In this document: positions 1-12,669 of the stretch, piece by piece | How positions within the stretch are numbered: position 1 is the stretch's first letter | Layout: the number at the start of each line of letters is the position of its first letter | DNA from: a virus | Lineage: Duplodnaviria; Caudoviricetes | DNA: 64,000 bases | Strand: one strand, 5' to 3' | Virus record (IMG/VR): IMGVR_UViG_3300027509_000013 | Span: 68,000 to 131,999 of that record | The notes under the pieces: generated by a model | Told to the model about the DNA's origin: nothing | Seen by the model: only the letters and a program-made list of their open reading frames with translations | Database searches by the model: none | Made by a program: the position numbers and the translations under genes

Positions 1-263
1 CTTCTCTGGAGTTGCACCCTTGTAACTGTAGGCATTTCAAATACTTTTGCCTTTACGGTTTTTTCTGCTCCTACTGACTCAATAATAAACCTTTGGAGTG
101 CTTCCAAGTCGGCACTATCAATAGTGATACTTTTACTCGTTTTCTTTCCAATTGATTCGGTTGATAAGATTACGGTTATACATTCTATTCCGTTCCTTTC
201 CTTCTTTAACTTCATAATAATTTTATTTTTTTGATTTTTAATAACTGGTTTGATCCTTGGATT

Positions 264-494
264 TTATCCAAAAATGAAATTTACTTTTCTAAGATTCTTC
301 ATTGAATTCTGTAGGAACATAAGACTCTGATATGTCTTTTGTAGTTCATCCTGAGAGACTTCTTCGTCTCTAATTATTGATTTTTGAGTCATCAATATAT
401 CTAGATACTTATCAAATGTCTTATCACAGTCATGCGTGTAAAAATCATTTAATAGCGTGTGAATTGCTCGTAGTACTTGGTCTTGTGTCTTCAT
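264..494 (-). CDS. hypothetical phage protein
   Basis: 76-aa ATG ORF in a tightly packed minus-strand run. Confidence 0.6.
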   Translation of the reverse strand: MKTQDQVLRAIHTLLNDFYTHDCDKTFDKYLDILMTQKSIIRDEEVSQDELQKTYQSLMFLQNSMKNLRKVNFIFG

Positions 495-497
495 GGT

Positions 498-722
498 TTA
501 AAAATGATTTTTGATTAAGAATTTATTTAATGCGCTTAACATTTGAACCCTCGCAGCTAGTGGCGAAAGTACATTATATGGGTCTACATCTTTGACAAAA
601 TAATTCCAAATCTCTTGGAAGTCTTCGCCTGAAGACTTAACATAGTTGTTCAATCTGTTTACACAACTTTTATTGTAGTCTGATAAGTTGTCAATGATGT
701 GCTGCAAGTGGTTATCTAACAT
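498..722 (-). CDS. hypothetical phage protein
   Basis: 74-aa ATG ORF, 3 nt from the next gene. Confidence 0.6.
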   Translation of the reverse strand: MLDNHLQHIIDNLSDYNKSCVNRLNNYVKSSGEDFQEIWNYFVKDVDPYNVLSPLAARVQMLSALNKFLIKNHF

Positions 723-793
723 GGTAATTTTTCATTTAATGGTGTGAAAATTGGCGAACGTCTTAGTCTGGTGAAGGTCGCCTAAATGATTAT

Positions 794-1111
794 CTACAAT
801 TCTTTAGCATAAGATAAAAACAACTCCATCTCATGCTCTTTATCTTCTTCAGATAGACTATTCCAGTCATTAATTGATTCGGCTAAAACTTCTGTTATAC
901 TTTCATCTCCATCATAAACAATAGGATAGCCTCCGCTATTTGTCACATTTATGTACGAAATAAAAACATTCGATGTAGACCAGTAATCTAATAGGTAAAC
1001 TTTTAATTGATTTCTTTTAGTCCTCAATTGAGAAACTGTAAAGTAAGTATTTTCTAAAATAGCTTCAATAAATTGTGCCGTCGTTGGTTTGTTTATTTGA
1101 TAAAAGTCCAT
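794..1111 (-). CDS. hypothetical phage protein
   Basis: 105-aa ATG ORF; TACCTTTG promoter-like motif upstream on the minus strand (~1155-1162). Confidence 0.65.
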   Translation of the reverse strand: MDFYQINKPTTAQFIEAILENTYFTVSQLRTKRNQLKVYLLDYWSTSNVFISYINVTNSGGYPIVYDGDESITEVLAESINDWNSLSEEDKEHEMELFLSYAKEL

Positions 1112-1235
1112 AACTTAAATTTTGATTTTGATATAAATGGTTAAACAATAATTCAAAGGTAATACAATTATTTGAATTATTCAAGTATTGGAATAAATAG
1201 GGATTAATATTTTTACTTATCACTATCAATTCATT

Positions 1236-1335
1236 ATCTCTTTCTTACTCTCTCCCTCTCTCTCGTACTCTCTCCTGACTCTCCTTCCATCTCCTGACTC
1301 TGGTACTCACTCTCTCTTCTTGCTCTCTCTCAGGA
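1236..1335. repeat. CT-rich low-complexity tract with short repeats (CTCCTGACTCT x2, TACTCTCTCC x2)
   Basis: Strong pyrimidine skew in a non-coding region, followed by a GC-rich stretch. Confidence 0.6.
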
Positions 1336-1682
1336 GGTCCTACTTCATCGGGTGGCTCTTGCCGTATGGTTACATTTACTAATACCCCGCGCGACGCCTG
1401 GCACTGACTTGACCGGGGGGTATTCGAAAGTCCGAGAGGACAACCCCCGATATATTATACATGACCCCCAGACCGAGCAATGTGGTTGTTAAAGCATGAA
1501 TGGTAAATAAGTATTATCTTAGTATAGATAATTACTTTTTTAAGATTTGGAAGTCTATGAGGTCGGTCCAGGAGGTACCGGCCTTTTTATTGATAAGAAT
1601 CAGGGTTTTATTGATCTCCAAGGGTTTCGTTGGATGCAATGGAATGAGGTTGGTATTAACTCATGTTGGTTGGGGCAGTCTT

Positions 1683-2357
1683 TTAGGTTAGACTGCCCCT
1701 TTTTATTTGGTTATTAGTGTTCATAAATCTTTTTATGTTAGAAAGGTCGTGTTGGAGACTTATTAATTTGGATTCCATAAGCATCACAATCATAGCGCAG
1801 ACATGGAGATCTTTATGTGTTTTAGCTAGTCCATTTAATTGATATCTAGTTCCCTCGACTGAGAGTATAAGAGGTTTGATAGACAATGTAATTTTTTTGC
1901 TAGAATCTGTAATATCTATTGAATGTTTGATCACCTCGTATATATCTAGATCATCTTCTATTCTTTGGCCTACTATTTTGTCTCCAGAGAAGTGTTTTAC
2001 TTCAGTTCTGAGTCCGACGTAAGCTTTGTAAGCAAGTATTAAGTCTTTGAACTCTTTATCGATGTCAATTTCGTCGATACCTTGTTCTTTTATTGATACA
2101 TTATCCATTTGGAAGCACATCTTCTCAAATTCTTTATTAGTGAGAACAGAGATCTCAAGATTAGCATCTTTAATGATCCAATCATTTTCATTTAATAGGT
2201 TCATAGTTTCATTCAATCCAATTATTCGAGGATCTTCAGCTAGAGTACATTTGAACCTATACTCTGTTCCTCTTAGGAAATTGTTTATTCTATCGAATTT
2301 AATAGCTGTTCTTTGCCACTGCATTGCTTCGATTTCTTCTTTTCTTGTGTATTTCAT
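1683..2357 (-). CDS. hypothetical protein (likely start MKYTRKEE at 2357)
   Basis: Long ORF; the internal ATG avoids overlap with the upstream gene. Confidence 0.65.
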   Translation of the reverse strand: MKYTRKEEIEAMQWQRTAIKFDRINNFLRGTEYRFKCTLAEDPRIIGLNETMNLLNENDWIIKDANLEISVLTNKEFEKMCFQMDNVSIKEQGIDEIDIDKEFKDLILAYKAYVGLRTEVKHFSGDKIVGQRIEDDLDIYEVIKHSIDITDSSKKITLSIKPLILSVEGTRYQLNGLAKTHKDLHVCAMIVMLMESKLISLQHDLSNIKRFMNTNNQIKRGSLT

Positions 2358-2370
2358 AGATCGTTGTGTT

Positions 2371-3405
2371 TTAGTATGAGAAATTAGGTGTGATATTGAT
2401 ATTGTAGTTGTGTTTAAAGAAAGCCTTAGTAGCTTTTTTGGAAGAGTAGTCTTTATCGGAGCAGACAATGCCATTTTCCATGTAAGAGCAGAATAGGCAT
2501 CCTAGGATCTTTTTATCTTGAATAAAGGTTCCGGCTAGAGGTTGTTCGGAAGCACATTGAGGGCAGAAGCCTTTGATTCTAGTAGGATCTGATATACGAC
2601 CACCTGCGTAGTAGTTTATAGTATCAGGACAGATAACAAAATGGTTTTCATCTGGGATGTTTGATACTTCCGAGAGATCGAGGTTAAAATAGATCATAGA
2701 ATCCCTCATAGGCATAGCAGGGAATAGATATCCTGGTGTTTTGAGTTCATGAGTACACTTTTGATCTTTCTTGTTGATATTTTGTGTGATTTGCTTGAAT
2801 CCATGGTCAAGCATGATTATTTTTAGTCTAGTGGCCATAGCATCGTTGTAGCCGTATATTTTATCGAAATAAATCTGTCTAGAGTCCTTATCTATCCAAG
2901 TAAGGCTTCTGGCAAGTAGCACTTCGCCGCGTTTCACCCTTTTAGAGATACAAGCAGCAGTGATCATCTGTCTATCGTACCAGTTAGCAGAATCTATTTT
3001 AGCCTGACTCTCTACCATGCAAGTCCATAATCCATTTTTATTATGCTGTCTGTATTTGTAGAAGTTTTGAGGTCTAAAGAGATAAGAAGGGCTATTAGTG
3101 TAGAAGTAATCGATATTAGTAAGCGAGCAAGCTTTGATTATGTCCAGAGCCTTGTTAGTAGTAAGAGAAGAGTATTTACCTACTCTGGCGATGAGTTTAC
3201 CCGGCTTTACCTTACGATTATGCTTATCTAGCAGCATAGGAGAGCCAGGAATAGACTTTAGCGGTTGTTTTCGCATAATCTTAGCCAAAGGAGCTGAAAG
3301 TCGCTTCACGGAGCTTAAATCGTGCATTCCAAGGGTCTCTTGGTACTTAGAAATAGGGGAATAGAAGATAGAATCTTGTATAGATCGTCGCTTAAATCGT
3401 TGCAT
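2371..3405 (-). CDS. hypothetical phage protein (possibly PcfJ-like; C-terminal CxxC...CxxC)
   Basis: 344-aa ORF with TCM, ARSLTW and YFDKIY motifs and a Zn-ribbon-like tail. Confidence 0.6.
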   Translation of the reverse strand: MQRFKRRSIQDSIFYSPISKYQETLGMHDLSSVKRLSAPLAKIMRKQPLKSIPGSPMLLDKHNRKVKPGKLIARVGKYSSLTTNKALDIIKACSLTNIDYFYTNSPSYLFRPQNFYKYRQHNKNGLWTCMVESQAKIDSANWYDRQMITAACISKRVKRGEVLLARSLTWIDKDSRQIYFDKIYGYNDAMATRLKIIMLDHGFKQITQNINKKDQKCTHELKTPGYLFPAMPMRDSMIYFNLDLSEVSNIPDENHFVICPDTINYYAGGRISDPTRIKGFCPQCASEQPLAGTFIQDKKILGCLFCSYMENGIVCSDKDYSSKKATKAFFKHNYNINITPNFSY

Positions 3406-3452
3406 AATGTAAAATTAAAGAAATTTATTATGTATTAGTTGAAAAATTGTCT

Positions 3453-3460
3453 TAGATTTG
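3453..3460 (+). promoter_or_regulatory. Bacteroidota-type -7 promoter element for tRNA operon 1
   Basis: TAGATTTG matches TAnnTTTG. Confidence 0.6.
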
Positions 3461-3498
3461 TTTCGAATTAAGAAGTTAGCAATAGACAATACATTAAA

Positions 3499-3567
3499 GT
3501 GAAAACAAAAATTCAACAAAGGCATCCTCGCAACTATCACACTCGTGATGGAGTAGACGCTATTTGA
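3499..3567 (+). CDS. putative attenuator leader peptide 1 (MKTKIQQRHPRNYHTRDGVDAI)
   Basis: GTG...TGA; the codon run CAA CAA AGG CAT CCT CGC matches downstream Pro/His/Arg/Arg/Gln tRNAs. Confidence 0.8.
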   Translation: MKTKIQQRHPRNYHTRDGVDAI

Positions 3568-3595
3568 CCTTTTGTAAAGAACTATTAGTGTAGAT

Positions 3596-3631
3596 GCCCC
3601 TCATGAGTGAAAGCTTATGAGGGGTTTTTTT
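3596..3631 (+). terminator. intrinsic terminator/attenuator before tRNA operon 1
   Basis: GCCCCTCATGAGT-GAAA-GCTTATGAGGGG followed by T7. Confidence 0.85.
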
Positions 3632-3645
3632 ATTTTGATCAATAT

Positions 3646-3721
3646 AGGGATGTAGCTTAGTGGCCAGAGCGCGTATTTTGGGAATACGAAGGCGAGTGTT
3701 CAAATCACTCCATCCCTACCA
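3646..3721 (+). tRNA. tRNA-Pro(TGG)
   Basis: Cloverleaf; anticodon arm CGTAT-TTTGGGA-ATACG; encoded CCA. Confidence 0.95.
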
Positions 3722-3726
3722 ATTAT

Positions 3727-3802
3727 GGTAGCCTTGTGCTGTTTTGCAATGCAGCCGGACTGTGGATCTGGTGCGACGGGTTGGATTCCCGAGGTTTACC
3801 CA
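3727..3802 (+). tRNA. tRNA-His(GTG), atypical D and T loops
   Basis: CCGGA-CTGTGGA-TCTGG; T loop TTGGATT; imperfect acceptor stem; ends CCA. Confidence 0.8.
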
Positions 3803-3807
3803 ATAAT

Positions 3808-3880
3808 AGCCATGTAGCTCAACTGGCAGAGCGCTTCCCTACGAAGGAAGGGGTTGGGAGTTCGACTCTCTCCATGGTTA
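3808..3880 (+). tRNA. tRNA-Arg(ACG)
   Basis: CTTCC-CTACGAA-GGAAG; canonical D and T arms. Confidence 0.95.
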
Positions 3881-3924
3881 CTAAAATTTTAAAAATCGAC
3901 GGCGCTTCGCGCCTAGATACACAT

Positions 3925-4004
3925 GGTCAGGTAGCCACCCTCCTCTTCTAAAGGAGTAAGTGTAATTGGAGCTGAAAATCGGGGTTCGAATCCCTGTCTG
4001 ATCA
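3925..4004 (+). tRNA. tRNA-Arg(TCT), D-armless with long variable region
   Basis: Acceptor GGTCAGG/TCTGATC; CTCCT-CTTCTAA-AGGAG; T arm CGGGG-TTCGAAT-CCCTG; only 8 nt between acceptor and anticodon arms. Confidence 0.8.
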
Positions 4005-4054
4005 CTATTAAATAATAAATTTATTATTGTATATTTGTAAAAAATATATTAATT

Positions 4055-4321
4055 ATGACAGCATCGGAATTGTTAAATAAAGTACTGACTAAAGTATTTG
4101 CACTTCAATCTTTATCTGGTAAAATCAGGATAAAGACTGAAGAAAATAAAATGCAAGAACTAAATCTGTTTATTGTCTACTCTAATCATCCTGTTCAGTA
4201 TAACAATAAAATAAGTATTCTGAATTCTGATGATCATGATCTTGAAGAAATTTGGGAACAATTCAAAGAAGATGTTGATACCAATATAAGAGCAATTGAT
4301 CATATCGTTAATATGCCTTAA
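4055..4321 (+). CDS. hypothetical protein
   Basis: 88-aa ATG ORF with TATATTTG at 4030-4037. Confidence 0.7.
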   Translation: MTASELLNKVLTKVFALQSLSGKIRIKTEENKMQELNLFIVYSNHPVQYNNKISILNSDDHDLEEIWEQFKEDVDTNIRAIDHIVNMP

Positions 4322-4330
4322 ATTACACAA

Positions 4331-4403
4331 TGATGGTTAGCATAACTGGTTAGTGCATCGGGTTTTGGTCCCGAGGGATGGAGTTCGAGTCTCCGACCGT
4401 CAT
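4331..4403 (+). tRNA. tRNA-Gln(TTG)
   Basis: TCGGG-TTTTGGT-CCCGA; T1-A72. Confidence 0.95.
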
Positions 4404-4418
4404 CTAAATTACTGTTTT

Positions 4419-4715
4419 ATGAATGATACAAACATACCTGGTCCTTCCTTTACGGACTTTCTATATGCTGATATACCTACATTTACATCAGGTGAAGGTG
4501 TAGATACTCTTGAATATTTCAAACCTATCATACCAGATCCTGGTCCTAGACAGTTTAATTTATTTGTAGGCACCGAAGGATTCTTTCTTATTAGTGACGG
4601 GTTTAAAGATGAAAGAGATCGATCAGAACGTAAACACTGGCTAGCTCAAAGAATAGCTTACAGGAACCTGATCGATGGTAGAGAATATTACTCACGATTT
4701 AATAGCCCAGTATGA
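4419..4715 (+). CDS. hypothetical protein (start MNDTNIP)
   Basis: ATG just after tRNA-Gln. Confidence 0.6.
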   Translation: MNDTNIPGPSFTDFLYADIPTFTSGEGVDTLEYFKPIIPDPGPRQFNLFVGTEGFFLISDGFKDERDRSERKHWLAQRIAYRNLIDGREYYSRFNSPV

Positions 4716-4997
4716 GAAGATTTATAGGTCAGGAGATAGATGTCGGATCATTCTATACTTTAAGATACAGGTGGGTTTACCTGCCAAATGAGGCCTACAT
4801 CGAAGTTCCGCGGCAAATCCGACCATCAGTGCACTCAAACAAACAAAACATCCTCTACAGCGGCCAAAAACTACTTATCCGATGAATAAATACTACAAAC
4901 AAGCTATTATTGAAAGATATCAAAGCCACAATGGATGCTTATCATGCTTTATATTTATTATCTGGATTTTAGTAATGCTTATTGCATTGATACTTTC

Positions 4998-5252
4998 TTA
5001 CTCATGAAAAAACAAGAAATAAATCCAAGCACCAATAAATAAAAGTACAGGTATAAAACCAAAAATGAAATAACGAAATTTTCTATAGTATATCATTTTC
5101 TTCTCCTTTATTATAAGCTGATCATAATAGTAGTTAATAGCTTTGGGAATAGAACTACTCCAATAACCAAATGATATAGAAGATTCCTCGTAGTGCTCGA
5201 GAGCTCTTTTCCTCAAATCTTCTAGTGGTGTTTGTGCTGCTTGATTATCCAT
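4998..5252 (-). CDS. small membrane protein
   Basis: C-terminal hydrophobic segment. Confidence 0.65.
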   Translation of the reverse strand: MDNQAAQTPLEDLRKRALEHYEESSISFGYWSSSIPKAINYYYDQLIIKEKKMIYYRKFRYFIFGFIPVLLFIGAWIYFLFFHE

Positions 5253-5691
5253 TGTCTAATTTTATTTTAGCATCTATTTCTAAACCAATTATATCATGCA
5301 ACTCTTTCCTCAGATTCTTAGCTGTCTTTTCTGCTTCCAGTATCCCAGATATCAATTTCTTATGTCTTAATTTAGGATCGTGAATCCTTTTATCTCTAGG
5401 CTTGCTAATTGCAACCGAAGCCAAATCAAAACCTAAATTAGCTATTGCAACATTCAAATCATCTAGATATAAATCTCTAGGAAAACCAAATGCATTTCCA
5501 TCAGTTAATTGCTTGAAAATAATCATTTGAGGAACTGGATTGATTTCATGCTGTTCGCAGATTATTTTAGCCTCTTCTAAGCTTTGCTTGCTGTATCCAA
5601 CATAAGTGCCTCCAGTCCTAGAAGCACATTTTAAAAGATGTATGGTTTTACCACTTCTTCTTGATTTATATAGTATTTGTACATTATTCAT
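5245..5691 (-). CDS. small P-loop NTPase-like protein
   Basis: RRSGKT Walker-A-like and LYLDD Walker-B-like motifs. Confidence 0.6.
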   Translation of the reverse strand: MNNVQILYKSRRSGKTIHLLKCASRTGGTYVGYSKQSLEEAKIICEQHEINPVPQMIIFKQLTDGNAFGFPRDLYLDDLNVAIANLGFDLASVAISKPRDKRIHDPKLRHKKLISGILEAEKTAKNLRKELHDIIGLEIDAKIKLDNG

Positions 5692-5872
5692 TTTTTGATT
5701 TTATTTGTTCTTTAAGCCATAAAAAAGCTATTTCTTTTGATTCAAAATCAGAGCTTGCATCTGATACATATACACCAACTCTTTGTTTAGTGCTTTTAGC
5801 TATAAATGATACATAATGCTCTGTTCCATTATGCTCTACCTCTGTTAATTCTATAAATCTATCTAAAGTCAT
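5684..5872 (-). CDS. hypothetical protein
   Basis: 62-aa ORF directly after a TATATTTG motif (5877-5884, minus). Confidence 0.65.
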   Translation of the reverse strand: MTLDRFIELTEVEHNGTEHYVSFIAKSTKQRVGVYVSDASSDFESKEIAFLWLKEQIKSKNE

Positions 5873-5902
5873 AAATCAAATATACAAAAAATTTTTATTT
5901 AG

Positions 5903-5977
5903 TACACCAGGTGGGCTACGATCCCACGATCCCTCGATTAAAAGTCGAGTACTTTAGTCCAACTAAGCTACTGGTGC
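5903..5977 (-). tRNA. tRNA-Lys(TTT)
   Basis: CTCGA-CTTTTAA-TCGAG; T loop ATCGTAG. Confidence 0.92.
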
Positions 5978-5979
5978 AT

Positions 5980-6055
5980 TGGAGAACGTAGACGGGCTCG
6001 AACCGTCGTATCCGGATTTGCAGTCCGGCGCCTATGCCATCTCAGCCATACGTTC
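5980..6055 (-). tRNA. tRNA-Cys(GCA)
   Basis: CCGGA-CTGCAAA-TCCGG; U73; encoded CCA. Confidence 0.95.
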
Positions 6056-6060
6056 ATTAG

Positions 6061-6128
6061 CACAGGATGAATGAGTCGAACACTCTCGTAAGGGTTTGGA
6101 ATCCTTTTAGCTCCACAGCCTATCCTGC
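6061..6128 (-). tRNA. tRNA-Trp(CCA), shortened D arm
   Basis: AAGGA-TTCCAAA-CCCTT; D arm GCT-GTGG-AGC; G73. Confidence 0.85.
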
Positions 6129-6133
6129 ATAAA

Positions 6134-6216
6134 TGATTGATCCTCGGATTCGAACCGACCTCTGCCATTGCCACTCACTTTTCAGCGCGGGAGGAATCGA
6201 ACCTCAAAATCAATCA
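6134..6216 (-). ncRNA. tRNA-like RNA with two T-arm hairpins
   Basis: Closing stem TGATTGAT/ATCAATCA encloses GAGG-TTCGATT-CCTC and TCGG-TTCGAAT-CCGA. Confidence 0.55.
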
Positions 6217-6219
6217 TAG

Positions 6220-6291
6220 CGACAATGGACAGATTCGAACTGCCGTCCTCGGAACTTCACCCCGATGCTAAGCCACCTCAGCTACATTGTC
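6220..6291 (-). tRNA. tRNA-Phe(GAA)
   Basis: TCGGG-GTGAAGT-TCCGA. Confidence 0.92.
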
Positions 6292-6295
6292 AAAT

Positions 6296-6331
6296 AAAAA
6301 AAGCCTCGCAAAATTAATTACGAGGCTTTTT
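6296..6331 (-). terminator. intrinsic terminator/attenuator before tRNA operon 2
   Basis: Minus strand AGCCTCGTAA-loop-TTGCGAGGCT followed by a T-tract. Confidence 0.85.
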
Positions 6332-6353
6332 CATATGATCTAATCACATAGGT

Positions 6354-6413
6354 TTAGCAATCTCGCAATTCATGCAAAGAGAAACAAAACCATTTTTTTG
6401 TAATTAAAATCAT
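6354..6413 (-). CDS. putative attenuator leader peptide 2 (MILITKKWFCFSLHELRDC)
   Basis: ATG...TAA; AAA AAA TGG TTT TGT TTC matches downstream Phe/Trp/Cys/Lys tRNAs. Confidence 0.85.
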   Translation of the reverse strand: MILITKKWFCFSLHELRDC

Positions 6414-6417
6414 AATG

Positions 6418-6437
6418 CAAATATAGTGTTATATTTG
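6418..6437. promoter_or_regulatory. divergent Bacteroidota-type promoters
   Basis: TATATTTG on minus (6418-6425) and on plus (6430-6437). Confidence 0.65.
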
Positions 6438-6449
6438 TTAAAAAATAAC

Positions 6450-6776
6450 ATGATATCAAAACTTTCTTCAGAAGTAATCGATTTCGTAGCTAAAGTAGAA
6501 GCCAAATATCTTGAATACATGCAGGAGAGATTCCCTAATAATCGTATTGAGGAATTTGAAGTAACTGAAAACAAAAAGTACGTTAAGGTTATTCAATCAG
6601 GTGCCTTCTGCTTTATCAATAGAGAAAATGGGGATATCTATATGGCTAAAACATTTAGTTCTCCATCATTAAAAAATCCTCGAGGTAATTTATTCTCTAA
6701 ACAACTGGGAATGGAAGCGATATCTGAAAGATCTGCAGGAGGTAGAATCCATCCCCATATTAGGTATCTAAGATAA
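6450..6776 (+). CDS. conserved-looking small phage protein
   Basis: KKYVKV...FINRENGDIYMA...PRGNL pattern resembles small phage proteins; own promoter motif. Confidence 0.7.
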   Translation: MISKLSSEVIDFVAKVEAKYLEYMQERFPNNRIEEFEVTENKKYVKVIQSGAFCFINRENGDIYMAKTFSSPSLKNPRGNLFSKQLGMEAISERSAGGRIHPHIRYLR

Positions 6777-6780
6777 AAAG

Positions 6781-6851
6781 CGGGCCATCCCGGGCTCGAA
6801 CCGAGGATAACGGAGAGACAGTCCGTCGTATTACCACTATACTAATGGCCC
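6781..6851 (-). tRNA. tRNA-Asp(GTC)
   Basis: ACGGA-CTGTCTC-TCCGT; G73. Confidence 0.92.
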
Positions 6852-6855
6852 ATTG

Positions 6856-6929
6856 AGCCTAAGCAGGGATTCGAACCCCGGACATCTTCATTACAAATGA
6901 AGCGCTCTGACCAGCTGAGCTACTTAGGC
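6856..6929 (-). tRNA. tRNA-Thr(TGT)
   Basis: CTTCA-TTTGTAA-TGAAG. Confidence 0.95.
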
Positions 6930-7366
6930 AAGTTTTTATTTAAATGAGACATTTTACCTCCACATCTTCGGCTACATGTAGGTGTTTTTCCCATTGATAG
7001 TTTATGATTTATATTTTTACAGTCTTTTGAAAATTCATTTTTACAAATTGGACAAATTAAGGTTATCATTGTTTTAGATTTCCCAATATGCTTATTGTGC
7101 TTCACTATATTCTCTTTTCTGGAAAGGATTTGAAGATTTGATATAGAATCATTCATTTTATTTTCATCTATATGATCTACATGCTCTTCTGGCCTTAAAT
7201 ACCTTCTTACATGACAACTCATTATATATCTAGCATATGAAGTCGAAGTTTTTGTCCCATCTCTCCGAACCAATGCGACAACTCTTCTTGGTTCTTTGTT
7301 TGTATTTACATATCCTGCGATGTAATCTTTATAATATGGCCATCTTAATACTATTTTTGTTGACAT
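6920..7366 (-). CDS. HNH homing endonuclease inside the tRNA array
   Basis: HVDHIDENKMNDSISNLQIL HNH motif and C-terminal CPIC...CSRRC; stop overlaps the tRNA-Thr 5' end. Confidence 0.9.
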   Translation of the reverse strand: MSTKIVLRWPYYKDYIAGYVNTNKEPRRVVALVRRDGTKTSTSYARYIMSCHVRRYLRPEEHVDHIDENKMNDSISNLQILSRKENIVKHNKHIGKSKTMITLICPICKNEFSKDCKNINHKLSMGKTPTCSRRCGGKMSHLNKNLPK

Positions 7367-7386
7367 ATAAATTTATTTACTTAATG

Positions 7387-7463
7387 TATCTGCGGAGAGA
7401 CTTGAACTCTCATGTGACCAATTACGCTTTCGACAAGATATAAGCTTGAGGCGATACGCAGAC
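7387..7463 (-). tRNA. tRNA-Ile(TAT), D-armless with long variable region
   Basis: GTCTGCG/CGCAGAT acceptor; CAAG-CTTATAT-CTTG; GAGAG-TTCAAGT-CTCTC. Confidence 0.8.
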
Positions 7464-7475
7464 AATATAACATTG

Positions 7476-7546
7476 TAGTTCTGGCAGGACTTGAACCTGC
7501 GTCCATGGTATGTAACACCACTGCTCGGCCACTGAGCTACAGAACT
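7476..7546 (-). tRNA. tRNA-Val(TAC)
   Basis: GTGGT-GTTACAT-ACCAT. Confidence 0.92.
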
Positions 7547-7619
7547 AGAGCCGCTTTCATTTATAACGCGCCAACGTCACCTTCTAAAAAGGCAGGTCAT
7601 TACAAGCGGGACCTGTTTG

Positions 7620-7693
7620 AGCACGAATTCGGGATCGAACCGAATCTATTCTAGCTTGGAAGGCTAGCGCACCACCATTTATGCGTCTCGTGC
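7620..7693 (-). tRNA. tRNA-Gly(TCC)
   Basis: CTAGC-CTTCCAA-GCTAG; U73. Confidence 0.92.
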
Positions 7694-7797
7694 TTATGTA
7701 CCTCAAGTTGATCTTAAAACTCTTCCTAGCTCCCTAAATGGGAGGGCTACAGAAATTCAAATCAAAATGGCTTGGGCCATCAGGTAATTTCAGTTAG

Positions 7798-7874
7798 TTG
7801 GCACAATAGGATTCGAACCTATGTTTTCAACCGCTATCTTAGTCATGCGTATCAGGCATGCCGATTATGTGCCA
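7798..7874 (-). tRNA. tRNA-Ile(GAT), D-armless with long variable region
   Basis: TGGCACA/TGTGCCA; CATGC-CTGATAC-GCATG; ATAGG-TTCGAAT-CCTAT. Confidence 0.8.
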
Positions 7875-7879
7875 ATATG

Positions 7880-7953
7880 CTGCTTTGCAAGGGATCGAAC
7901 CTTGGACCTACGGATTAACAGTCCGCCGCTCTAACCAACTGAGCTACAAAGCA
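7880..7953 (-). tRNA. tRNA-Asn(GTT)
   Basis: GCGGA-CTGTTAA-TCCGT; G73. Confidence 0.95.
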
Positions 7954-8012
7954 ATGTAAGGGTAATCGTAAGATCTCGACGGCCACTTCGGACACCCTAA
8001 AATCGATTATTG

Positions 8013-8085
8013 TGGAGAAGAAGGGCTTCGAACCCTCAACCTTCTGATTGCAAATCAGATGCACGTCCTCTTGTGCTTCAACCCC
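8013..8085 (-). tRNA. tRNA-Ala(TGC)
   Basis: TCTGA-TTTGCAA-TCAGA; G3-U70 present; two U-U mismatches in the acceptor stem. Confidence 0.9.
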
Positions 8086-8088
8086 AAA

Positions 8089-8162
8089 TGGCGGGAGAGG
8101 GAGTCGAACCCTCGTCTTGGGCTTATGAGACCCAGCTGGAACCACCTCCAGTCTACCCCGCA
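8089..8162 (-). tRNA. tRNA-Met(CAT), initiator-like
   Basis: TGGGT-CTCATAA-GCCCA; 1:72 mismatch and a GCGGGG acceptor as in tRNA-fMet. Confidence 0.85.
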
Positions 8163-8175
8163 ATATATTTTCCAT

Positions 8176-8213
8176 AAAAAAAGGGACCAGAAAATTAATC
8201 CTGATCCCTTTTT
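8176..8213 (-). terminator. intrinsic terminator/attenuator before tRNA operon 3
   Basis: Minus strand AGGGATCAGGA-loop-TTCTGGTCCCT followed by a T-tract. Confidence 0.85.
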
Positions 8214-8234
8214 GTATATTGTATGTTACTTACT

Positions 8235-8315
8235 TCAATACATAAAGAGACCAGGTGACGTATCATCGCCTCCGGCTACTATTGTAATATTGATATTGGT
8301 AATAATTTGTTTCAC
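8235..8315 (-). CDS. putative attenuator leader peptide 3 (MKQIITNINITIVAGGDDTSPGLFMY)
   Basis: GTG...TGA; 16 consecutive I/T/N/V/A/G/D codons match downstream tRNAs; promoter TACATTTG at 8335-8342. Confidence 0.85.
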   Translation of the reverse strand: MKQIITNINITIVAGGDDTSPGLFMY

Positions 8316-8372
8316 TTTACTTTTTATTGAATGACAAATGTACATTAAGTTTTATTACTAAGCAACAATTAA

Positions 8373-8807
8373 TCAATAATATCTTTTTGCTTGTAATGCT
8401 ATATCTATTTTAGCCCAGTTTACATAGTCTCTCCCTGTCGGGTTTTTGATCAATGGGCAACATATAGATGCATCATCGATATAAATGTGACAATAAGCTT
8501 TAGGACTTGTAGTCCATGTGTACTGTGTCGGATTTGTTTGGATCCCAAATAAATGAATTTCTCTGTCCTTAAACCAATTCACTGCTTGAGCTAGATAGTC
8601 TCCTGACTCAGTTATGATCTGAGGATCTTCTGATTCTGGATTGACTATATTTGATCTCATGGTAAATAAAATCAAATTATGTCCATTGGCTACTAACTTT
8701 TTAAGAGTCTTTACTGCTCCTGGAACGTCCGCTCCGACTTTAGGAAATTCATGTATCACACATGTTCCATCAAAATCTACCCCTACGTATCTATTTTCTT
8801 GCATCAT
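8373..8807 (-). CDS. HAD-superfamily phosphatase
   Basis: VDFDGT motif I, FTMR, K and YIDD motif IV. Confidence 0.85.
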   Translation of the reverse strand: MMQENRYVGVDFDGTCVIHEFPKVGADVPGAVKTLKKLVANGHNLILFTMRSNIVNPESEDPQIITESGDYLAQAVNWFKDREIHLFGIQTNPTQYTWTTSPKAYCHIYIDDASICCPLIKNPTGRDYVNWAKIDIALQAKRYY

Positions 8808-9531
8808 TGAATAAGCTATTTATTTTTAAATCATTATATCTCTTCTGTCCATCAGTGAAGTAATCTATATCTTTTTCACAAACTACTAAAGTTAGATTCA
8901 TATTATCGATTACATTAAGTTTATTGACAGCTAGAGCTAAACTCATGCTTCCTCCATGGGTGTCTAAGATCTTCTCTCCTGGCTTTGCATATTCCATTAG
9001 TAGCCATTCGTACAACTTAACTGGCTTTTGAGTAGGGTGTATTCTCTTTTCGTTGAGTTTCTTGTTCCCTTGCTGCTTTAGTGCCTTTACTCTATCTTTT
9101 CCACAGTATACTCCTTGCATCATTCCAGAGAACATGTAGTAAACGATGTCCATTCTGTTGCTAAAGCTTTGGTAGGCGATCTCACATCCATATTGGTCCG
9201 CGCCATTTGCTACTATCTTATCCCAGACTATTCTGCCGCCAACAAGATTAGGATAGTAGTTTGCACCCCAGATTATTTGATTCTTACTTACTCTAAATAA
9301 TTCGTCAAAGTACTCTGGTGGACTTCTCTGATCATCCCAATCTTTATGTTTGTATTTCGCTTGTTTTACTGGTCTATATGTTCCATTTGGTTGTTGAGCC
9401 CGACCTGATTTTGTAGAAGGCTTACTAGCACCTATTCCATATTCAAGATCTGGCATGGCTAAGTCGAAAAAGTTATCTCCGAGATCACGCATGAAATCCA
9501 TGTTGTCAGTATGTAGAAGAAGTATACTCAT
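8791..9531 (-). CDS. DNA amino-methyltransferase (N6A/N4C, beta class)
   Basis: HPTQKPVKLY and ILDTHGGSMS motifs; catalytic motif reads DLEY. Confidence 0.85.
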   Translation of the reverse strand: MSILLLHTDNMDFMRDLGDNFFDLAMPDLEYGIGASKPSTKSGRAQQPNGTYRPVKQAKYKHKDWDDQRSPPEYFDELFRVSKNQIIWGANYYPNLVGGRIVWDKIVANGADQYGCEIAYQSFSNRMDIVYYMFSGMMQGVYCGKDRVKALKQQGNKKLNEKRIHPTQKPVKLYEWLLMEYAKPGEKILDTHGGSMSLALAVNKLNVIDNMNLTLVVCEKDIDYFTDGQKRYNDLKINSLFNDARK

Positions 9532-9797
9532 TACAGCGCAGTACCAAGAAGTTGAGCCCCGGATTCAGAAGTATCCTTAGACATAACATATTGTTTTTCT
9601 CCTTCATCATCCCAAACACGATTAGAACAATCTGAACAGTATGTTTTCCCTTCTTCAGTAATAGACCATTCTCCTGCTTCTAAGATATCATCTTTTATTG
9701 CAGATTTCTCACTTAAAGCTACACATCCACTCCAAAGCTCATAGTTCTCTTTGCAGATATCACAAGATGCACACCACATTTTTACTTCTTCTATCAT
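9531..9797 (-). CDS. small Zn-binding hypothetical protein
   Basis: CDIC...CSDC. Confidence 0.65.
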   Translation of the reverse strand: MIEEVKMWCASCDICKENYELWSGCVALSEKSAIKDDILEAGEWSITEEGKTYCSDCSNRVWDDEGEKQYVMSKDTSESGAQLLGTAL

Positions 9798-9901
9798 AAT
9801 TTTTTTATTTTCGAATAACCATCCGCTATCGGACTCCCTACCGATACCTGCTCCTTGGTGATCACCTTACTTTGGACGAGCTACGGATGATTGTTCTTCT
9901 C

Positions 9902-10336
9902 TTAATTAAATCCTAAATCAACTACTCTAGTACTCGGCGCTATCTCTTTCCAATTTCCTAATAATACTTCTGCAGGAGGCAAATCTAGTAAGCTTGCTAA
10001 ATCTATATAGGTGTCATAACATGAAGTAACATATAAATCTTTGAAATAACCCATTATAGCCATATGGTCCTGCAGAGAGATGTTTCTTAGTCTTAGATTT
10101 AAAGAACTGTCATCAATGGTCGACATTAGAATCCAGTAGTCTCCATGGTAACTATCAGGTTGAATAACTACACTGGTTGACTTTCCTCTATACTCAAATG
10201 TATTTGGATTAGCATTGAGAAGGATCTTATGAGTATGAATGCCGACATCATCAGTATAATAGATCCAATGATTCTTGTATAAATCTGGAATAGGCTGATT
10301 ATGTCTGTATTCCCAATCTTTGATGTACTTAATCAT
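9902..10336 (-). CDS. hypothetical protein
   Basis: 144-aa ORF overlapping the upstream stop. Confidence 0.65.
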   Translation of the reverse strand: MIKYIKDWEYRHNQPIPDLYKNHWIYYTDDVGIHTHKILLNANPNTFEYRGKSTSVVIQPDSYHGDYWILMSTIDDSSLNLRLRNISLQDHMAIMGYFKDLYVTSCYDTYIDLASLLDLPPAEVLLGNWKEIAPSTRVVDLGFN

Positions 10337-10769: not shown

Positions 10770-10782
10770 TATTGTGTATTTG

Positions 10783-10900
10783 AGGCCAGAGCAGGACTCG
10801 AACCTGCAACACATCTTATATCGCTAGAAAATAAAGGTGTCTTAAAAATAAGAAGGATACTCCTAAAAAGTACTGCGTCTACCAATTCCGCCACCTGGCC
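10783..10900 (-). ncRNA. Leu-type tRNA-like RNA with TTA anticodon-like loop and ~50-nt insertion
   Basis: GGCCAGG-TGGCGGAATTGGTAGACGC...GCAGG-TTCGAGT-CCTGC-TCTGGCC; arm GTACT-TTTTAGG-AGTAT. Confidence 0.7.
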
Positions 10901-10916
10901 TTAGATTTTAAAAATC

Positions 10917-12541: not shown

Positions 12542-12580
12542 AAAAAAAGCCCATTGCGATATTTCACGCAATGGGCTTTT
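12542..12580 (-). terminator. intrinsic terminator/attenuator before tRNA operon 4
   Basis: Minus strand AGCCCATTGCG-loop-CGCAATGGGCT followed by a T-tract. Confidence 0.88.
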
Positions 12581-12603
12581 GTAGTTCTTAACTTATTTCT
12601 ACA

Positions 12604-12669
12604 TCAATACCGGTTGCGTTCGTCGTTAGACAAATAGAGCAGACTCGATAATGATGATGTATTTTTCAT
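12604..12669 (-). CDS. putative attenuator leader peptide 4 (MKNTSSLSSLLYLSNDERNRY)
   Basis: ATG...TGA; TCA TCA TTA TCG AGT CTG CTC TAT TTG TCT matches Leu/Leu/Tyr/Ser/Ser tRNAs. Confidence 0.85.
   Translation of the reverse strand: MKNTSSLSSLLYLSNDERNRY

What the first reader, a model, noticed from the sequence alone, without database searches (positions are those of the whole stretch)
3499..3631. Attenuator 1: QQRHPR leader upstream of Pro/His/Arg/Arg/Gln tRNAs
Leader codons CAA CAA AGG CAT CCT CGC ... CAC ... CGT cover both Arg families (AGR and CGN), matching tRNA-Arg(TCT) and tRNA-Arg(ACG). CACTCGTGA (3540-3548) can pair 9 bp with TCATGAGTG (3601-3609) in the terminator arm. GGCATC (3521) can also pair with GATGCC (3593). 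Caveat: a TATATTTG motif at 4030 may give tRNA-Gln its own promoter.
Basis: partly seen in the sequence, partly recalled or inferred. Interest (0 to 1): 0.85.

Follow-up and report, generated by a model that had tools for sequence, protein, structure and literature searches.

The report
Leader-peptide attenuator gating phage tRNA genes
A phage places a tiny translated "test" gene and a transcription stop signal in front of each block of its tRNA genes, and the test gene is written in exactly the codons those tRNAs read, so the phage probably makes more tRNA only when decoding of those codons slows down.

Summary
At 3499-3567 (+) lies a 22-codon ORF. Its run CAA CAA AGG CAT CCT CGC uses only the amino acids of the five tRNA genes downstream (Pro, His, Arg-ACG, Arg-UCU, Gln). 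A strong intrinsic terminator (3596-3636) sits 10 nt before tRNA-Pro. Segment 3540-3555, in the ORF's 3' part, pairs with the terminator's 5' arm (-14.0 kcal/mol, 4 of 2000 shuffles as good).

The element is not alone. The other three tRNA blocks of this 132-kb crAss-like phage carry the same module, with cognate runs of 16, 6 and 10 codons. Distant relatives (TerL about 25% identical) carry it too, and their leader composition follows their tRNA content. Simulated ribosome footprints give the classical logic: a stall in the run lets the antiterminator form, and a ribosome further on masks it.

I read this as ribosome-mediated attenuation that senses decoding capacity and feeds back on tRNA gene transcription. 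Eight full-text searches found no report of it. Nothing is shown experimentally: no RNA data were available and the host is unknown. The tRNA-His call is weak. crAss001 and a Lak-C1 tRNA region lack the module.

The parts
3453..3460 (+). TAGATTTG, a match to the Bacteroidota -7 promoter motif TAnnTTTG, 38 nt before the leader start. Its role as promoter of the leader-tRNA unit is inferred.
   Evidence: the motif occurs 93 times in the window against 72.6 +/- 8.2 in shuffles, so it is only mildly enriched. The consensus itself is recalled from the literature, not taken from a call.
3499..3567 (+). Leader ORF E1: GTG start, 22 codons (VKTKIQQRHPRNYHTRDGVDAI), TGA stop.
   Evidence: The start context AAAGTGAAA is shared with sister leader E2, and AAA is the second codon in 6 of 7 leaders.
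3514..3531 (+). Cognate codon run CAA CAA AGG CAT CCT CGC (Q Q R H P R). Every downstream tRNA is represented at least once.
   Evidence: 22 of 20,000 shuffles; 5 of 6 codons are read by strict wobble, and 6 of 6 with four-way U34 reading.
3540..3555 (+). Antiterminator 5' strand (region 2), inside codons 14-19 of the leader. It pairs with 3596-3608.
   Evidence: -14.0 kcal/mol against a shuffle mean of -6.2 +/- 1.95, equalled in 4 of 2000 shuffles; this pairing is the predicted fold of the nascent transcript.
3596..3636 (+). Intrinsic terminator: stem 3596-3608/3613-3625, loop GAAA, then a U tract. It ends 10 nt before tRNA-Pro.
   Evidence: -21.8 kcal/mol; one of 11 hairpin+T-run sites at or below -17 kcal/mol in the whole genome.
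3646..3721 (+). tRNA-Pro (TGG), with encoded CCA.
   Evidence: 66.8 bits.
3728..3801 (+). tRNA-His (GTG), non-canonical, weak call.
   Evidence: ARAGORN relaxed only. Rfam 13 bits, E = 2, with anticodon loop CUGUGGA; a G lies at -1 (3727) and ARAGORN places C at the discriminator position.
3808..3881 (+). tRNA-Arg (ACG).
   Evidence: 61.6 bits.
3925..4004 (+). tRNA-Arg (TCT), with a truncated D arm and a 20-nt variable insertion.
   Evidence: 30.5 bits, cut-off 29, focused search only. ARAGORN relaxed gives other borders, 3911-4005.
4030..4404 (+). Promoter-like TATATTTG (4030-4037), ORF of 88 aa (4055-4321, no family match) and tRNA-Gln (TTG, 4331-4404). No terminator-like site lies between tRNA-Arg(TCT) and tRNA-Gln.
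8176..8342 (-). Sister element E2. It has TACATTTG at 8342-8335, a leader ORF at 8315-8235 (VKQIITNINITIVAGGDDTSPGLFMY), a 16-codon run at 8306-8259, an antiterminator at 8256-8243 and a terminator at 8211-8176. Downstream lie tRNAs CAT, Ala, Asn, Ile, Gly, Val, (Ile-TAT), Thr and Asp.
   Evidence: -17.5 kcal/mol, 0 of 2000 shuffles..
6298..6425 (-). Sister element E3. It has TATATTTG 4 nt before ATG, a leader at 6413-6354 (MILITKKWFCFSLHELRDC), a run KKWFCF at 6398-6381, an antiterminator at 6369-6355 and a terminator at 6331-6298. The U tract abuts tRNA-Phe; Trp, Cys and Lys follow.
   Evidence: -9.8 kcal/mol, 0.0065..
12545..12669 (-). Sister element E4, which follows tRNA-Glu. It has a leader at 12669-12604 (MKNTSSLSSLLYLSNDERNRY), a run SSLSSLLYLS at 12657-12628, an antiterminator at 12619-12608 and a terminator at 12580-12545. 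The U tract abuts the next tRNA; Leu, Tyr, Ser and Ser follow.
   Evidence: -9.5 kcal/mol, 0.015..

Best explanation
E1 is a ribosome-mediated (leader-peptide) transcription attenuator that gates a phage tRNA operon.

Proposed steps:
1. Host RNA polymerase starts near 3467 (inferred from a -7-like motif) and transcribes a 22-codon leader.
2. A ribosome translates the leader while the polymerase moves on.
3. If decoding of Gln, Arg (AGG and CGC), His or Pro codons is slow because the matching charged tRNAs are scarce, the ribosome stalls within 3514-3531.
4. Segment 3540-3555 then stays free and pairs with 3596-3608 as soon as that arm is made. The terminator stem cannot form, and the polymerase reads on into tRNA-Pro, His, Arg, Arg and onward to Gln.
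5. If decoding is fast, the ribosome moves onto codons 12-22 and covers 3540-3555. The terminator hairpin forms and transcription stops 10 nt before tRNA-Pro.

The result is a negative feedback loop: supply of exactly these tRNAs shuts off their own synthesis. Three sister modules do the same for the phage's other three tRNA blocks.

What is shown and what is inferred:
- Shown from sequence and computation: the ORF, the cognate run, the terminator, the competing pairing and its position, the replication in the same genome and in relatives.
- Inferred: the promoter, translation from GTG, coupling of ribosome and polymerase, termination efficiency, and the direction of regulation.
For: 1. Codon match in this genome.
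- Cognate-amino-acid runs of 6, 16, 6 and 10 codons lie upstream of the four tRNA blocks.
- Off-diagonal leader x cluster runs are 4 or fewer, except for the large 8-residue set (6, 4, 9).
- Genome-wide, in six frames, runs at least that long number 10, 2, 5 and 1. That gives 0.008, 0.0017, 0.004 and 0.0005 expected per upstream region.
- Dinucleotide shuffles reach the observed run in 22, 0, 261 and 0 of 20,000.
- An automated scan with sets taken from relaxed ARAGORN calls (which for the 8163 block merges in the Phe/Trp/Cys/Lys tRNAs) recovers the same four sites, p 0.0015, 0.005, 0.011 and 0.

2. Codon level.
- 52 of 65 run codons in seven leaders are read by a downstream tRNA under strict wobble, and 64 of 65 with four-way U34 reading.
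- Every downstream tRNA is represented in its leader.

3. Terminator placement.
- 11 hairpin+T-run sites at or below -17 kcal/mol exist in 132 kb.
- 5 of them lie 30 nt or less upstream of a tRNA on the same strand.
- In E3 and E4 the U tract abuts the tRNA 5' end, which leaves no room for a separate promoter.

4. Antiterminator.
- In all four elements the best partner of the terminator 5' arm lies in the last codons of the ORF, ending 10, 6, -1 and 2 nt before the stop.
- Energies are -14.0, -17.5, -9.8 and -9.5 kcal/mol.
- Shuffle fractions are 0.002, 0, 0.0065 and 0.015 of 2000; Fisher combined 2e-7.

5. Ribosome-mask folds.
- The mean probability that the 5' arm is sequestered is 0.71-0.89 with the A site on most codons of the run; in E2 it falls to 0.61 and 0.42 at the run's last two codons.
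- It drops to 0.14-0.36 a few codons after the run, in all four elements.

6. Independent relatives.
- L057: tRNAs Pro, Thr, Asn, Phe, Gln; leader run FNTQPNNTFN, 0 of 10,000 shuffles.
- L088/L089: the cluster also has tRNA-His, and the leader gains CAT.
- L032: leader run PQPFQF, 39 of 10,000 shuffles.
- These loci show the same geometry and the same mask profile.

7. A sub-threshold hit of Rfam His_leader spans 3513-3632 (24.6 bits, cut-off 49, E = 0.15). This shows attenuator-like shape, not membership.
Against: - No experimental data. No RNA run was available, the host is unknown, and no transcript ends are known.
- E1 starts with GTG and has no tested initiation signal.
- E1's 6-codon run depends on a weak tRNA-His call (Rfam 13 bits).
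- Without a ribosome mask, the truncated-transcript folds show terminator-arm pairing only for E1 (fraction of shuffles as good 0.10) and E2 (0.013). E3 (0.88) and E4 (1.0) do not show it.
- For E1 and E2 the antiterminator is also predicted with no ribosome at all (0.88, 0.82). There is therefore no trp-like 1:2 'anti-antiterminator' state.
- With the ribosome on the stop codon, part of the 5' arm is again predicted paired: E1 0.59, E3 0.79.
- The footprint used (-18 to +11 nt around the A site) is an assumption.
- In two relatives the duplex is not better than shuffles (L088 0.12, L032 0.17).
- L088's run is significant only if a Ser tRNA, found after seeing the leader, is counted (3475 against 5 of 10,000).
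- The first tRNA of L032 is called Tyr-GTA by ARAGORN at low threshold. I read it by eye as Pro-TGG.
- TTATTTTG at 3630-3637 is one mismatch from the promoter motif, so a weak promoter inside E1's U tract cannot be excluded.
- The module is absent from crAss001's 23-tRNA array, from a Lak-C1 tRNA region, and from a loose group of three tRNAs in G024.
Confidence: 0.75

Rival explanations
1. The leader is a translated sensor of the same tRNAs, but it acts by another route than terminator/antiterminator choice. Possible routes are Rho-type polarity after ribosome stalling, translation-dependent processing or stability of the pre-tRNA, or the opposite polarity (a stall giving less tRNA).
For: The codon match only requires translation-based sensing. 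The antiterminator evidence is thermodynamic prediction, weak in L088 and L032 and absent without a mask in E3 and E4. A read-through transcript would carry the hairpin and U tract as the 5' leader of the first pre-tRNA.
Against: All seven elements have a canonical G+C-rich hairpin followed by a U tract. In all seven, a partner of the 5' arm lies in the same place in the ORF's 3' end (Fisher 2e-7 for the four in this genome). The mask profiles switch at the end of the run.
Confidence: 0.12
2. An independent small gene (micro-protein or small RNA) with its own terminator happens to lie before the tRNA genes. The tRNAs have their own promoter, or rely on leaky read-through, and the codon match is coincidence.
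For: A near-match to the promoter motif (TTATTTTG, 3630-3637) overlaps E1's U tract. E1 alone loses significance if tRNA-His is dropped. Short ORFs are frequent in A+T-rich DNA.
Against: All four blocks in this genome, and three distinct leaders in relatives, show cluster-specific runs. The expected numbers per region are 0.0005-0.008. In E3 and E4 the tRNA starts at the last base of the U tract, so no downstream promoter fits. Peptide sequences are not conserved between related loci, whereas composition tracks tRNA content.
Confidence: 0.03
3. A T-box-like RNA that binds tRNA anticodons directly through the codon run, without translation, and switches the terminator.
For: tRNA-sensing terminator/antiterminator switches exist (T-box). 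The run offers several anticodon-complementary triplets.
Against: No T-box hit appears at Rfam gathering score in the window, nor at E <= 1 in 3400-4500. The runs are always in frame between a start and a stop codon. AAA is the second codon in 6 of 7 leaders. The leaders carry up to 16 different 'specifiers' for 8-9 tRNAs, which a single T-box-like fold could not read.
Confidence: 0.04

Closest known systems
Leader-peptide transcription attenuators of amino-acid operons (trp, his, leu, pheA, and the multi-amino-acid thr and ilvGMEDA leaders of enterobacteria; Rfam His_leader RF00514 and similar)
   Same: A short ORF with a run of regulatory codons. An intrinsic terminator before the regulated genes. 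An alternative helix that uses the terminator's 5' arm and is masked by a ribosome that reaches the end of the ORF. Several amino acids sensed by one leader, as in thr and ilv (that comparison is recalled, not from a call).
   Different: The regulated genes are tRNA genes, not biosynthetic enzymes. The run samples every tRNA of the operon, up to 8-9 species in E2. The setting is a phage of a (probable) Bacteroidota host, with no Shine-Dalgarno sequence and with GTG or possibly leaderless starts. No trp-like 1:2 state is predicted for E1 and E2. There is no sequence homology: His_leader scores 24.6 bits against a cut-off of 49.
pheST leader attenuator of E. coli (phenylalanyl-tRNA synthetase operon; recalled, no call)
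   Same: A component of the decoding apparatus is regulated by a leader peptide that senses the cognate charged tRNA.
   Different: It controls a synthetase, for one amino acid. Here the tRNA genes themselves are controlled, which closes a direct loop from tRNA supply to tRNA synthesis.
T-box riboswitches
   Same: They sense tRNA status and choose between terminator and antiterminator upstream of translation-related genes.
   Different: A T-box binds one uncharged tRNA directly and needs no ribosome. No T-box hit was found here, and the sensor here is an ORF.
tRNA arrays of other phages (Bacteroides phage crAss001; Prevotella phage Lak-C1)
   Same: Large tRNA gene arrays interspersed with small ORFs and HNH endonuclease genes.
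   Different: No leader-plus-terminator module with a cognate run was seen before any block of crAss001's 23 tRNAs or in a 30-kb Lak-C1 tRNA region.

Membership tests
Ribosome-mediated (leader-peptide) transcription attenuator | Short ORF with start and stop codon between the promoter and the regulated genes | tested here: met
   3499-3567, 22 codons. Sister leaders have 26, 19 and 21 codons. Relatives have 23, 23 and 22 codons.
Ribosome-mediated (leader-peptide) transcription attenuator | Regulatory codons enriched beyond chance and related to the regulated genes | tested here: met
   Runs of 6, 16, 6 and 10 codons, reached in 22, 0, 261 and 0 of 20,000 shuffles. They are cluster-specific. 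For E1 this depends on the weak tRNA-His call.
Ribosome-mediated (leader-peptide) transcription attenuator | Intrinsic terminator between the leader ORF and the first regulated gene | tested here: met
   3596-3636, 13-bp stem, -21.8 kcal/mol, U tract, 10 nt before tRNA-Pro.
Ribosome-mediated (leader-peptide) transcription attenuator | Mutually exclusive antiterminator helix that is free when the ribosome stalls in the run and masked when the ribosome reaches the ORF's end | tested here: met
   Prediction only. Duplex 3540-3555 x 3596-3608, -14.0 kcal/mol, 4 of 2000 shuffles. Mask profile 0.88-0.89 in the run against 0.23-0.27 at codons 13-16, but 0.59 at the stop.
Ribosome-mediated (leader-peptide) transcription attenuator | Anti-antiterminator (1:2) pairing that gives termination when the leader is not translated | tested here: not met
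   For E1 and E2 the antiterminator is predicted without any ribosome (0.88, 0.82). E3, E4, L057, L088 and L032 do show low values without a ribosome (0.20, 0.49, 0.02, 0.32, 0.21). This feature is typical of trp, but I do not treat it as defining for the class.
Ribosome-mediated (leader-peptide) transcription attenuator | Demonstrated change of read-through with charged-tRNA supply | not testable with these tools
   No RNA run was listed; the host is unknown.
Rfam His_leader (RF00514) or other curated leader families | Covariance-model score at or above the gathering cut-off | tested here: not met
   24.6 bits against 49, E = 0.15. No leader family was found at gathering score in the window.
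T-box riboswitch (RF00230) | Stem I/specifier loop and conserved T-box sequence, detected by the covariance model | tested here: not met
   No hit at gathering score in 64 kb, nor at E <= 1 in 3400-4500.
Ordinary gene-end intrinsic terminator | A co-directional gene ends shortly upstream | tested here: not met
   The upstream gene (2371-3405) is on the minus strand and diverges from the element. Only the 22-codon leader precedes the terminator on the plus strand.

The most novel reading that the evidence does not exclude
The phage carries tRNAs for all 20 amino acids, close to a minimal decoding set, split into four modules. Each module is gated by a composite leader that reads out, codon by codon, the availability of exactly the tRNAs behind it. 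Several of the codons used are rare in the phage's long ORFs or are read only by wobble. This would be a codon-resolved homeostat that lets the phage replace the host tRNA pool on demand. Examples of such demand are host tRNAs being degraded during infection, or being cut by anticodon-nuclease defences. It would be a so far undescribed regulatory link from decoding capacity to tRNA gene transcription, present in a lineage of crAss-like phages.
Probability: 0.35. Interest if true: 0.95.

Novelty: new variant of a known kind. Interest (0 to 1): 0.88.

Why it matters
tRNA genes are usually thought of as constitutively or growth-rate controlled. Leader-peptide attenuation is known for amino-acid biosynthesis and a few synthetase or transport genes.

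Here the same device appears to be wired to tRNA genes themselves. The leaders are tailored to each operon's tRNA content and co-vary with that content between related phages. If this is confirmed, it would do the following:
- Give a direct feedback mechanism for tRNA supply.
- Help explain how phages with large tRNA arrays decide when to express them. This is an open question in work on phage tRNAs, codon usage and tRNA-targeting defences.
- Show that ribosome-polymerase coupling is used for regulation in Bacteroidota-type hosts.
- Supply natural, compact, codon-specific sensors of decoding speed for synthetic biology.
- Predict tRNA genes from leaders. In L088 the leader's Ser codons pointed to two non-canonical Ser tRNA candidates, one of them found by ARAGORN only at low stringency.

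Tried and rejected
Near relatives for nucleotide-level covariation of E1: none found.
- blastn of 3300-4500 against phages hit 19 records, each covering only 5-6% of the query; the 15 listed with annotation were tRNA-Arg genes or un-annotated stretches.
- The neighbouring 344-aa protein found no relative in viral contigs or in metagenome contigs.
- TerL as a single query found none in viral contigs.

Expression: no RNA holder was listed for 3300-8400, and read laying was therefore not used.

More examples:
- A 38-nt conserved pattern downstream of the L057/L032 clusters matched only those two contigs.
- 80 metagenome loci related to L057's TerL (928,863 nt) added no new multi-tRNA cluster. L142 is the same contig as L032.

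Places where the module was looked for and not seen:
- crAss001 (23 tRNAs).
- A Lak-C1 30-kb region.
- Single or paired tRNAs in L112, L094, L115 and L053.
- G014, G023 and a loose trio in G024.
- G043 and G041.
- Cellulophaga phage phi14:2 and Flavobacterium phage FpV4 have no tRNA hit at all.
- L008's cluster is cut by the contig end.

Analysis notes:
- Unmasked truncated-transcript folding gave no antiterminator for E3 and E4. The duplex and mask analyses replaced it.
- My first automatic parsing of terminators picked weak outer pairs, so I set the arms by hand from the printed folds.
- The GGCATC/GATGCC pairing is rejected as a functional claim. It is 6 bp, lies under the stalled ribosome and is absent from the folds.

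Literature: eight full-text searches returned 0 to 64 papers. Judged from listings, titles and abstract starts only, none describes leader peptides or attenuators before tRNA genes. No paper was opened. Supplements were closed and were not needed.
Full report
**What the window is**

The window is bases 68000-131999 of a 131,999-bp virus record that is rated 100% complete. The genome has 35.9% G+C.
- The standard genetic code already gives long frames, up to 5036 codons stop-to-stop (a 5027-aa ORF from its first ATG).
- The large terminase matches phrog_6681 (3.1e-38) and the portal matches phrog_6547.
- By tblastn the best named relative is Cellulophaga phage phi14:2, a Crassvirales phage (taxonomy as in its record), at 26% identity over 96% of the protein. 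Other crAss-like phages and Flavobacterium phages follow.
- In the 5.8-billion protein collection the nearest non-identical terminase is 40% identical.

So this is a deep-branching crAss-like phage. Its host is probably in the Bacteroidota. That is inferred from its relatives and from TAnnTTTG promoter-like motifs, and it is not shown.

**The observation**

- Leader ORF: GTG at 3499 opens a 22-codon frame, VKTKIQQRHPRNYHTRDGVDAI, that ends at TGA 3565-3567.
- Terminator: a 13-bp hairpin with a GAAA loop (3596-3625, -21.8 kcal/mol) followed by TTTTTTTATTTT. It ends 10 nt before tRNA-Pro at 3646.
- Fold: the 161-nt stretch 3480-3640 folds at -46.3 kcal/mol, z = -4.87, and 0 of 200 shuffles fold as well.
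- Position: the gene upstream (2371-3405) is on the other strand. The terminator therefore ends nothing but the 22-codon ORF. That is an odd place for a terminator unless it is conditional.

**The downstream tRNAs**

- Pro-TGG, Arg-ACG and Gln-TTG are solid calls.
- Arg-TCT (3925-4004) passes the Rfam cut-off only in a focused search (30.5 bits). It has a truncated D arm and a 20-nt variable insertion.
- His-GTG (3728-3801) is weak. It appears only with relaxed ARAGORN, and Rfam gives 13 bits, E = 2. Its anticodon arm is regular, and a G precedes the 5' end.

**The key result: the element is one of a family**

Reading the minus strand showed the same module before each of the phage's other tRNA blocks.

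| Element | Leader ORF (strand) | Peptide | tRNAs behind it |
|---|---|---|---|
| E2 | 8315-8235 (-) | VKQIITNINITIVAGGDDTSPGLFMY | CAT, Ala, Asn, Ile, Gly, Val, (Ile-TAT), Thr, Asp |
| E3 | 6413-6354 (-) | MILITKKWFCFSLHELRDC | Phe, Trp, Cys, Lys |
| E4 | 12669-12604 (-) | MKNTSSLSSLLYLSNDERNRY | (presumed Leu-TAG), Leu-TAA, Tyr, Ser-GCT, Ser-TGA |

Each is followed by a strong hairpin and a U tract directly before the first tRNA.

Statistics on the cognate-amino-acid runs:
- The longest runs are 6, 16, 6 and 10 codons.
- Leaders scored against the wrong cluster give at most 4, except with the large eight-residue set, which gives 6, 4 and 9.
- In all six frames of the whole genome, runs at least that long number 10, 2, 5 and 1, the elements themselves included. 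The number expected in each upstream region is therefore 0.008, 0.0017, 0.004 and 0.0005.
- Dinucleotide shuffles of each region reach the observed run in 22, 0, 261 and 0 of 20,000.
- A scan that took tRNA sets automatically from ARAGORN recovered the same four sites (p 0.0015, 0.005, 0.011, 0; for the 8163 block the automatic set merged in the Phe/Trp/Cys/Lys tRNAs). No other tRNA start in 1-15000 was significant.

At codon level, 52 of 65 run codons in seven leaders are read by a downstream anticodon under strict wobble. With four-way reading by U34 in family boxes the count is 64 of 65. Every tRNA of a block has at least one codon in its leader.

Several run codons are rare in the phage's long ORFs. 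CGC is 1% of Arg codons. ACC, GCC, GGC, ACG, TCG, CTG and CTC are each 5-8% of their amino acid's codons. This fits a sensor tuned to be slow, but that reading is an inference.

**Terminators**

A crude genome-wide search found 36 hairpin+T-run sites, 11 of them at or below -17 kcal/mol. Five of those 11 lie within 30 nt upstream of a tRNA gene on the same strand: E1-E4 and one before the tRNA at 10900.

In E3 and E4 the tRNA begins at the base after the U tract. Those tRNAs can therefore only be transcribed by reading through the terminator.

**Antiterminator**

For each element I asked which part of the RNA between the end of the run and the terminator pairs best with the terminator's 5' arm.

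| Element | Partner segment | Energy (kcal/mol) | Fraction of 2000 shuffles as good | Partner ends before the stop (nt) |
|---|---|---|---|---|
| E1 | 3540-3555 | -14.0 | 0.002 | 10 |
| E2 | 8256-8243 | -17.5 | 0 | 6 |
| E3 | 6369-6355 | -9.8 | 0.0065 | -1 |
| E4 | 12619-12608 | -9.5 | 0.015 | 2 |

- The Fisher combined value is 2e-7.
- The partner always lies in the ORF's last codons. That is the geometry of classical attenuators.

**Simulated ribosome footprints**

I folded the nascent transcript, cut before the 3' arm, with a 30-nt footprint placed on each codon in turn.
- With the A site on most codons of the run, the 5' arm is sequestered with mean probability 0.88-0.89 (E1), 0.79-0.82 (E2, falling to 0.61 and 0.42 at the last two run codons), 0.71 (E3) and 0.72 (E4).
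- A few codons after the run it falls to 0.23-0.27, 0.20-0.27, 0.18-0.31 and 0.14-0.36.

Results that count against a neat picture:
- The unmasked folds show arm pairing only for E1 and E2.
- E1 and E2 are predicted to antiterminate even without any ribosome.
- With the ribosome on the stop codon the values rise again in E1 (0.59) and E3 (0.79).
- The footprint size is assumed, and all of this is equilibrium prediction.

**Relatives**

An alignment of four terminases found 80 distant loci in IMG/VR, at 24-31% TerL identity. A second search, with L057's terminase, found closer relatives of that locus.

Groups of three or more tRNAs whose upstream sequence could be evaluated numbered nine:
- four in this genome;
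- L057, L088, L089 (near-identical to L088) and L032;
- a loose trio in G024.

Eight of the nine carry the module. The G024 trio does not. L008 is cut by its contig end.

| Locus | tRNAs | Leader (cognate run in brackets) | Run against shuffles |
|---|---|---|---|
| L057 | Pro, Thr, Asn, Phe, Gln | MK[FNTQPNNTFN]YSIKAIGTIVR | 0 of 10,000 |
| L088/L089 | the L057 set plus His | MKNITHTSQFSNQFPKGSEDSIV | 3475 of 10,000 with confident tRNAs only |
| L032 | (first tRNA uncertain), Phe, Gln | MKTLIANNL[PQPFQF]TNWRDLL | 39 of 10,000 |

- L088/L089: the leader gains a His codon, matching the extra tRNA-His. Its run is interrupted by Ser codons. With two Ser tRNA candidates in the 181-nt gap after tRNA-Pro, the count drops to 5 of 10,000. 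ARAGORN finds Ser-GCT there only at its lowest stringency. I read Ser-TGA by eye, with an Rfam tRNA-Sec-like hit at E = 0.74. I looked for both only after seeing the leader.
- L032: the first tRNA scores 33.1 bits in Rfam. I read it as Pro-TGG by eye and by its position. ARAGORN at low threshold calls it Tyr-GTA. If ARAGORN is right, the run shrinks to FQF (p = 0.35).

The relatives show the same geometry. The antiterminator partner ends 12, 5 and 7 nt before the stop, with duplex shuffle fractions of 0.0085, 0.12 and 0.17. The mask profiles are:

| Locus | No ribosome | A site in the run | After the run |
|---|---|---|---|
| L057 | 0.02 | 0.57-0.59 | 0.01-0.26 |
| L088 | 0.32 | 0.58-0.73 | 0.30-0.55 |
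| L032 | 0.21 | 0.56-0.63 (0.22 at the run's last codon) | 0.11-0.21 |

The peptide sequences are not conserved between these loci, whereas their composition follows tRNA content. That is what selection on codon identity would give.

**Where the module is absent**

- Single or paired tRNAs in related contigs.
- The 23-tRNA array of Bacteroides phage crAss001.
- A 30-kb tRNA-bearing region of Prevotella phage Lak-C1.

It is therefore a trait of a lineage, not of all phages with Bacteroidota hosts.

**Mechanism proposed**

This is classical ribosome-mediated attenuation, with the read-out turned back on the tRNA genes.
- Scarcity of the cognate charged tRNAs stalls the ribosome in the run. The antiterminator forms and the tRNA operon is transcribed.
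- Sufficiency lets the ribosome cover the antiterminator, and the terminator stops transcription.

Shown: the anatomy, the statistics and the replication. Inferred: promoter use, translation (the GTG start in E1 and E2; ATG directly 4 nt after the -7-like motif in E3, L057 and L088, which suggests leaderless mRNAs), coupling, and the sign of the response.

**Comparison with what is known**

- It works like the trp, his, thr and ilv leaders, and like the pheST leader in that the target is a decoding component. Those comparisons are recalled, not taken from a call.
- It is not a member of any curated leader family. Rfam His_leader gives only 24.6 bits against a cut-off of 49.
- It is not a T-box.
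- Eight full-text searches gave no paper that describes leader peptides or attenuators in front of tRNA genes. I judged this from listings and abstract starts only.

**Verdict**

I rate it a new variant of a known kind, of high interest. Confidence in the attenuation mechanism is 0.75. Confidence that these leaders are translation-based sensors of the downstream tRNAs is higher.

Noticed in passing
window 3646-12752 (all tRNA genes of the genome lie here): The phage encodes tRNAs for all 20 amino acids, 24 at relaxed ARAGORN stringency. There is one U34 tRNA per family box (Pro-TGG, Thr-TGT, Ala-TGC, Gly-TCC, Val-TAC, Ser-TGA, presumed Leu-TAG) plus Arg-ACG, which is close to a minimal complete decoding set. 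Only one CAT tRNA was found.
   Followed up: partly
window 10782-10953 (-): A 119-nt tRNA that ARAGORN reads as anticodon TTA (it would read the stop codon TAA) with a 39-nt insertion; Rfam tRNA 42.5 bits. It is preceded by a strong hairpin+T-run (10953-10917, -18.5 kcal/mol), but I saw no cognate leader. The genome gives long frames under the standard code.
   Followed up: partly
window about 10985-11075 (-): By eye, a tRNA 3' half (T arm plus acceptor 3' strand) is followed after about 14 nt by a matching acceptor 5' strand and D arm. This could be a permuted or broken tRNA gene. Not tested.
   Followed up: no
window 3925-4004 (+), 3728-3801 (+), 7799-7881 (-), 12453-12537 (-), 7386-7480 (-): Several tRNA genes are non-canonical and escape default detection. 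Arg-TCT lacks a normal D arm and has a 20-nt variable insertion. His has mismatched stems. The tRNA at 12453-12537 is typed differently in each ARAGORN run (Ser with intron, Gln), while by eye its loop TTTAGAA gives anticodon TAG.
   Followed up: partly
window 6129-6218 (-): Between tRNA-Phe and tRNA-Trp lie two T-arm-like hairpins without a full cloverleaf. They may be tRNA remnants or mini-helices.
   Followed up: no
window 6920-7366 (-) and 12802-13431 (-): An HNH_3 endonuclease gene (26.8 bits, cut-off 24.8) sits inside tRNA block 2, between Val/Ile and Thr. An RNase H gene (6.7e-27) lies just upstream of the promoter-like motif of tRNA-Glu/E4.
   Followed up: partly
window 3646-12752: The four tRNA blocks roughly follow the rows of the codon table. 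Block 1 reads mostly C-initial codons (Pro, His, Gln, Arg). Block 2 reads A- and G-initial codons. Blocks 3 and 4 read mostly U-initial codons (Phe, Trp, Cys, Tyr, Ser, Leu).
   Followed up: no
window 12680-12801 (-): tRNA-Glu lies between the promoter-like motif TACATTTG (12801-12794) and leader E4. It is therefore upstream of the attenuator and would be made regardless of E4's state.
   Followed up: no
L057 about 880-925 and L032 2468-2505: A conserved element of about 40 nt follows the tRNA clusters of both relatives. The exact pattern occurs in only these two contigs of IMG/VR. Its function is unknown.
   Followed up: partly
G000 927-16010 (outside the window): A 5027-aa ORF. By analogy with crAss-like phages it might be the giant virion RNA polymerase protein. 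That analogy is recalled and not tested here.
   Followed up: no
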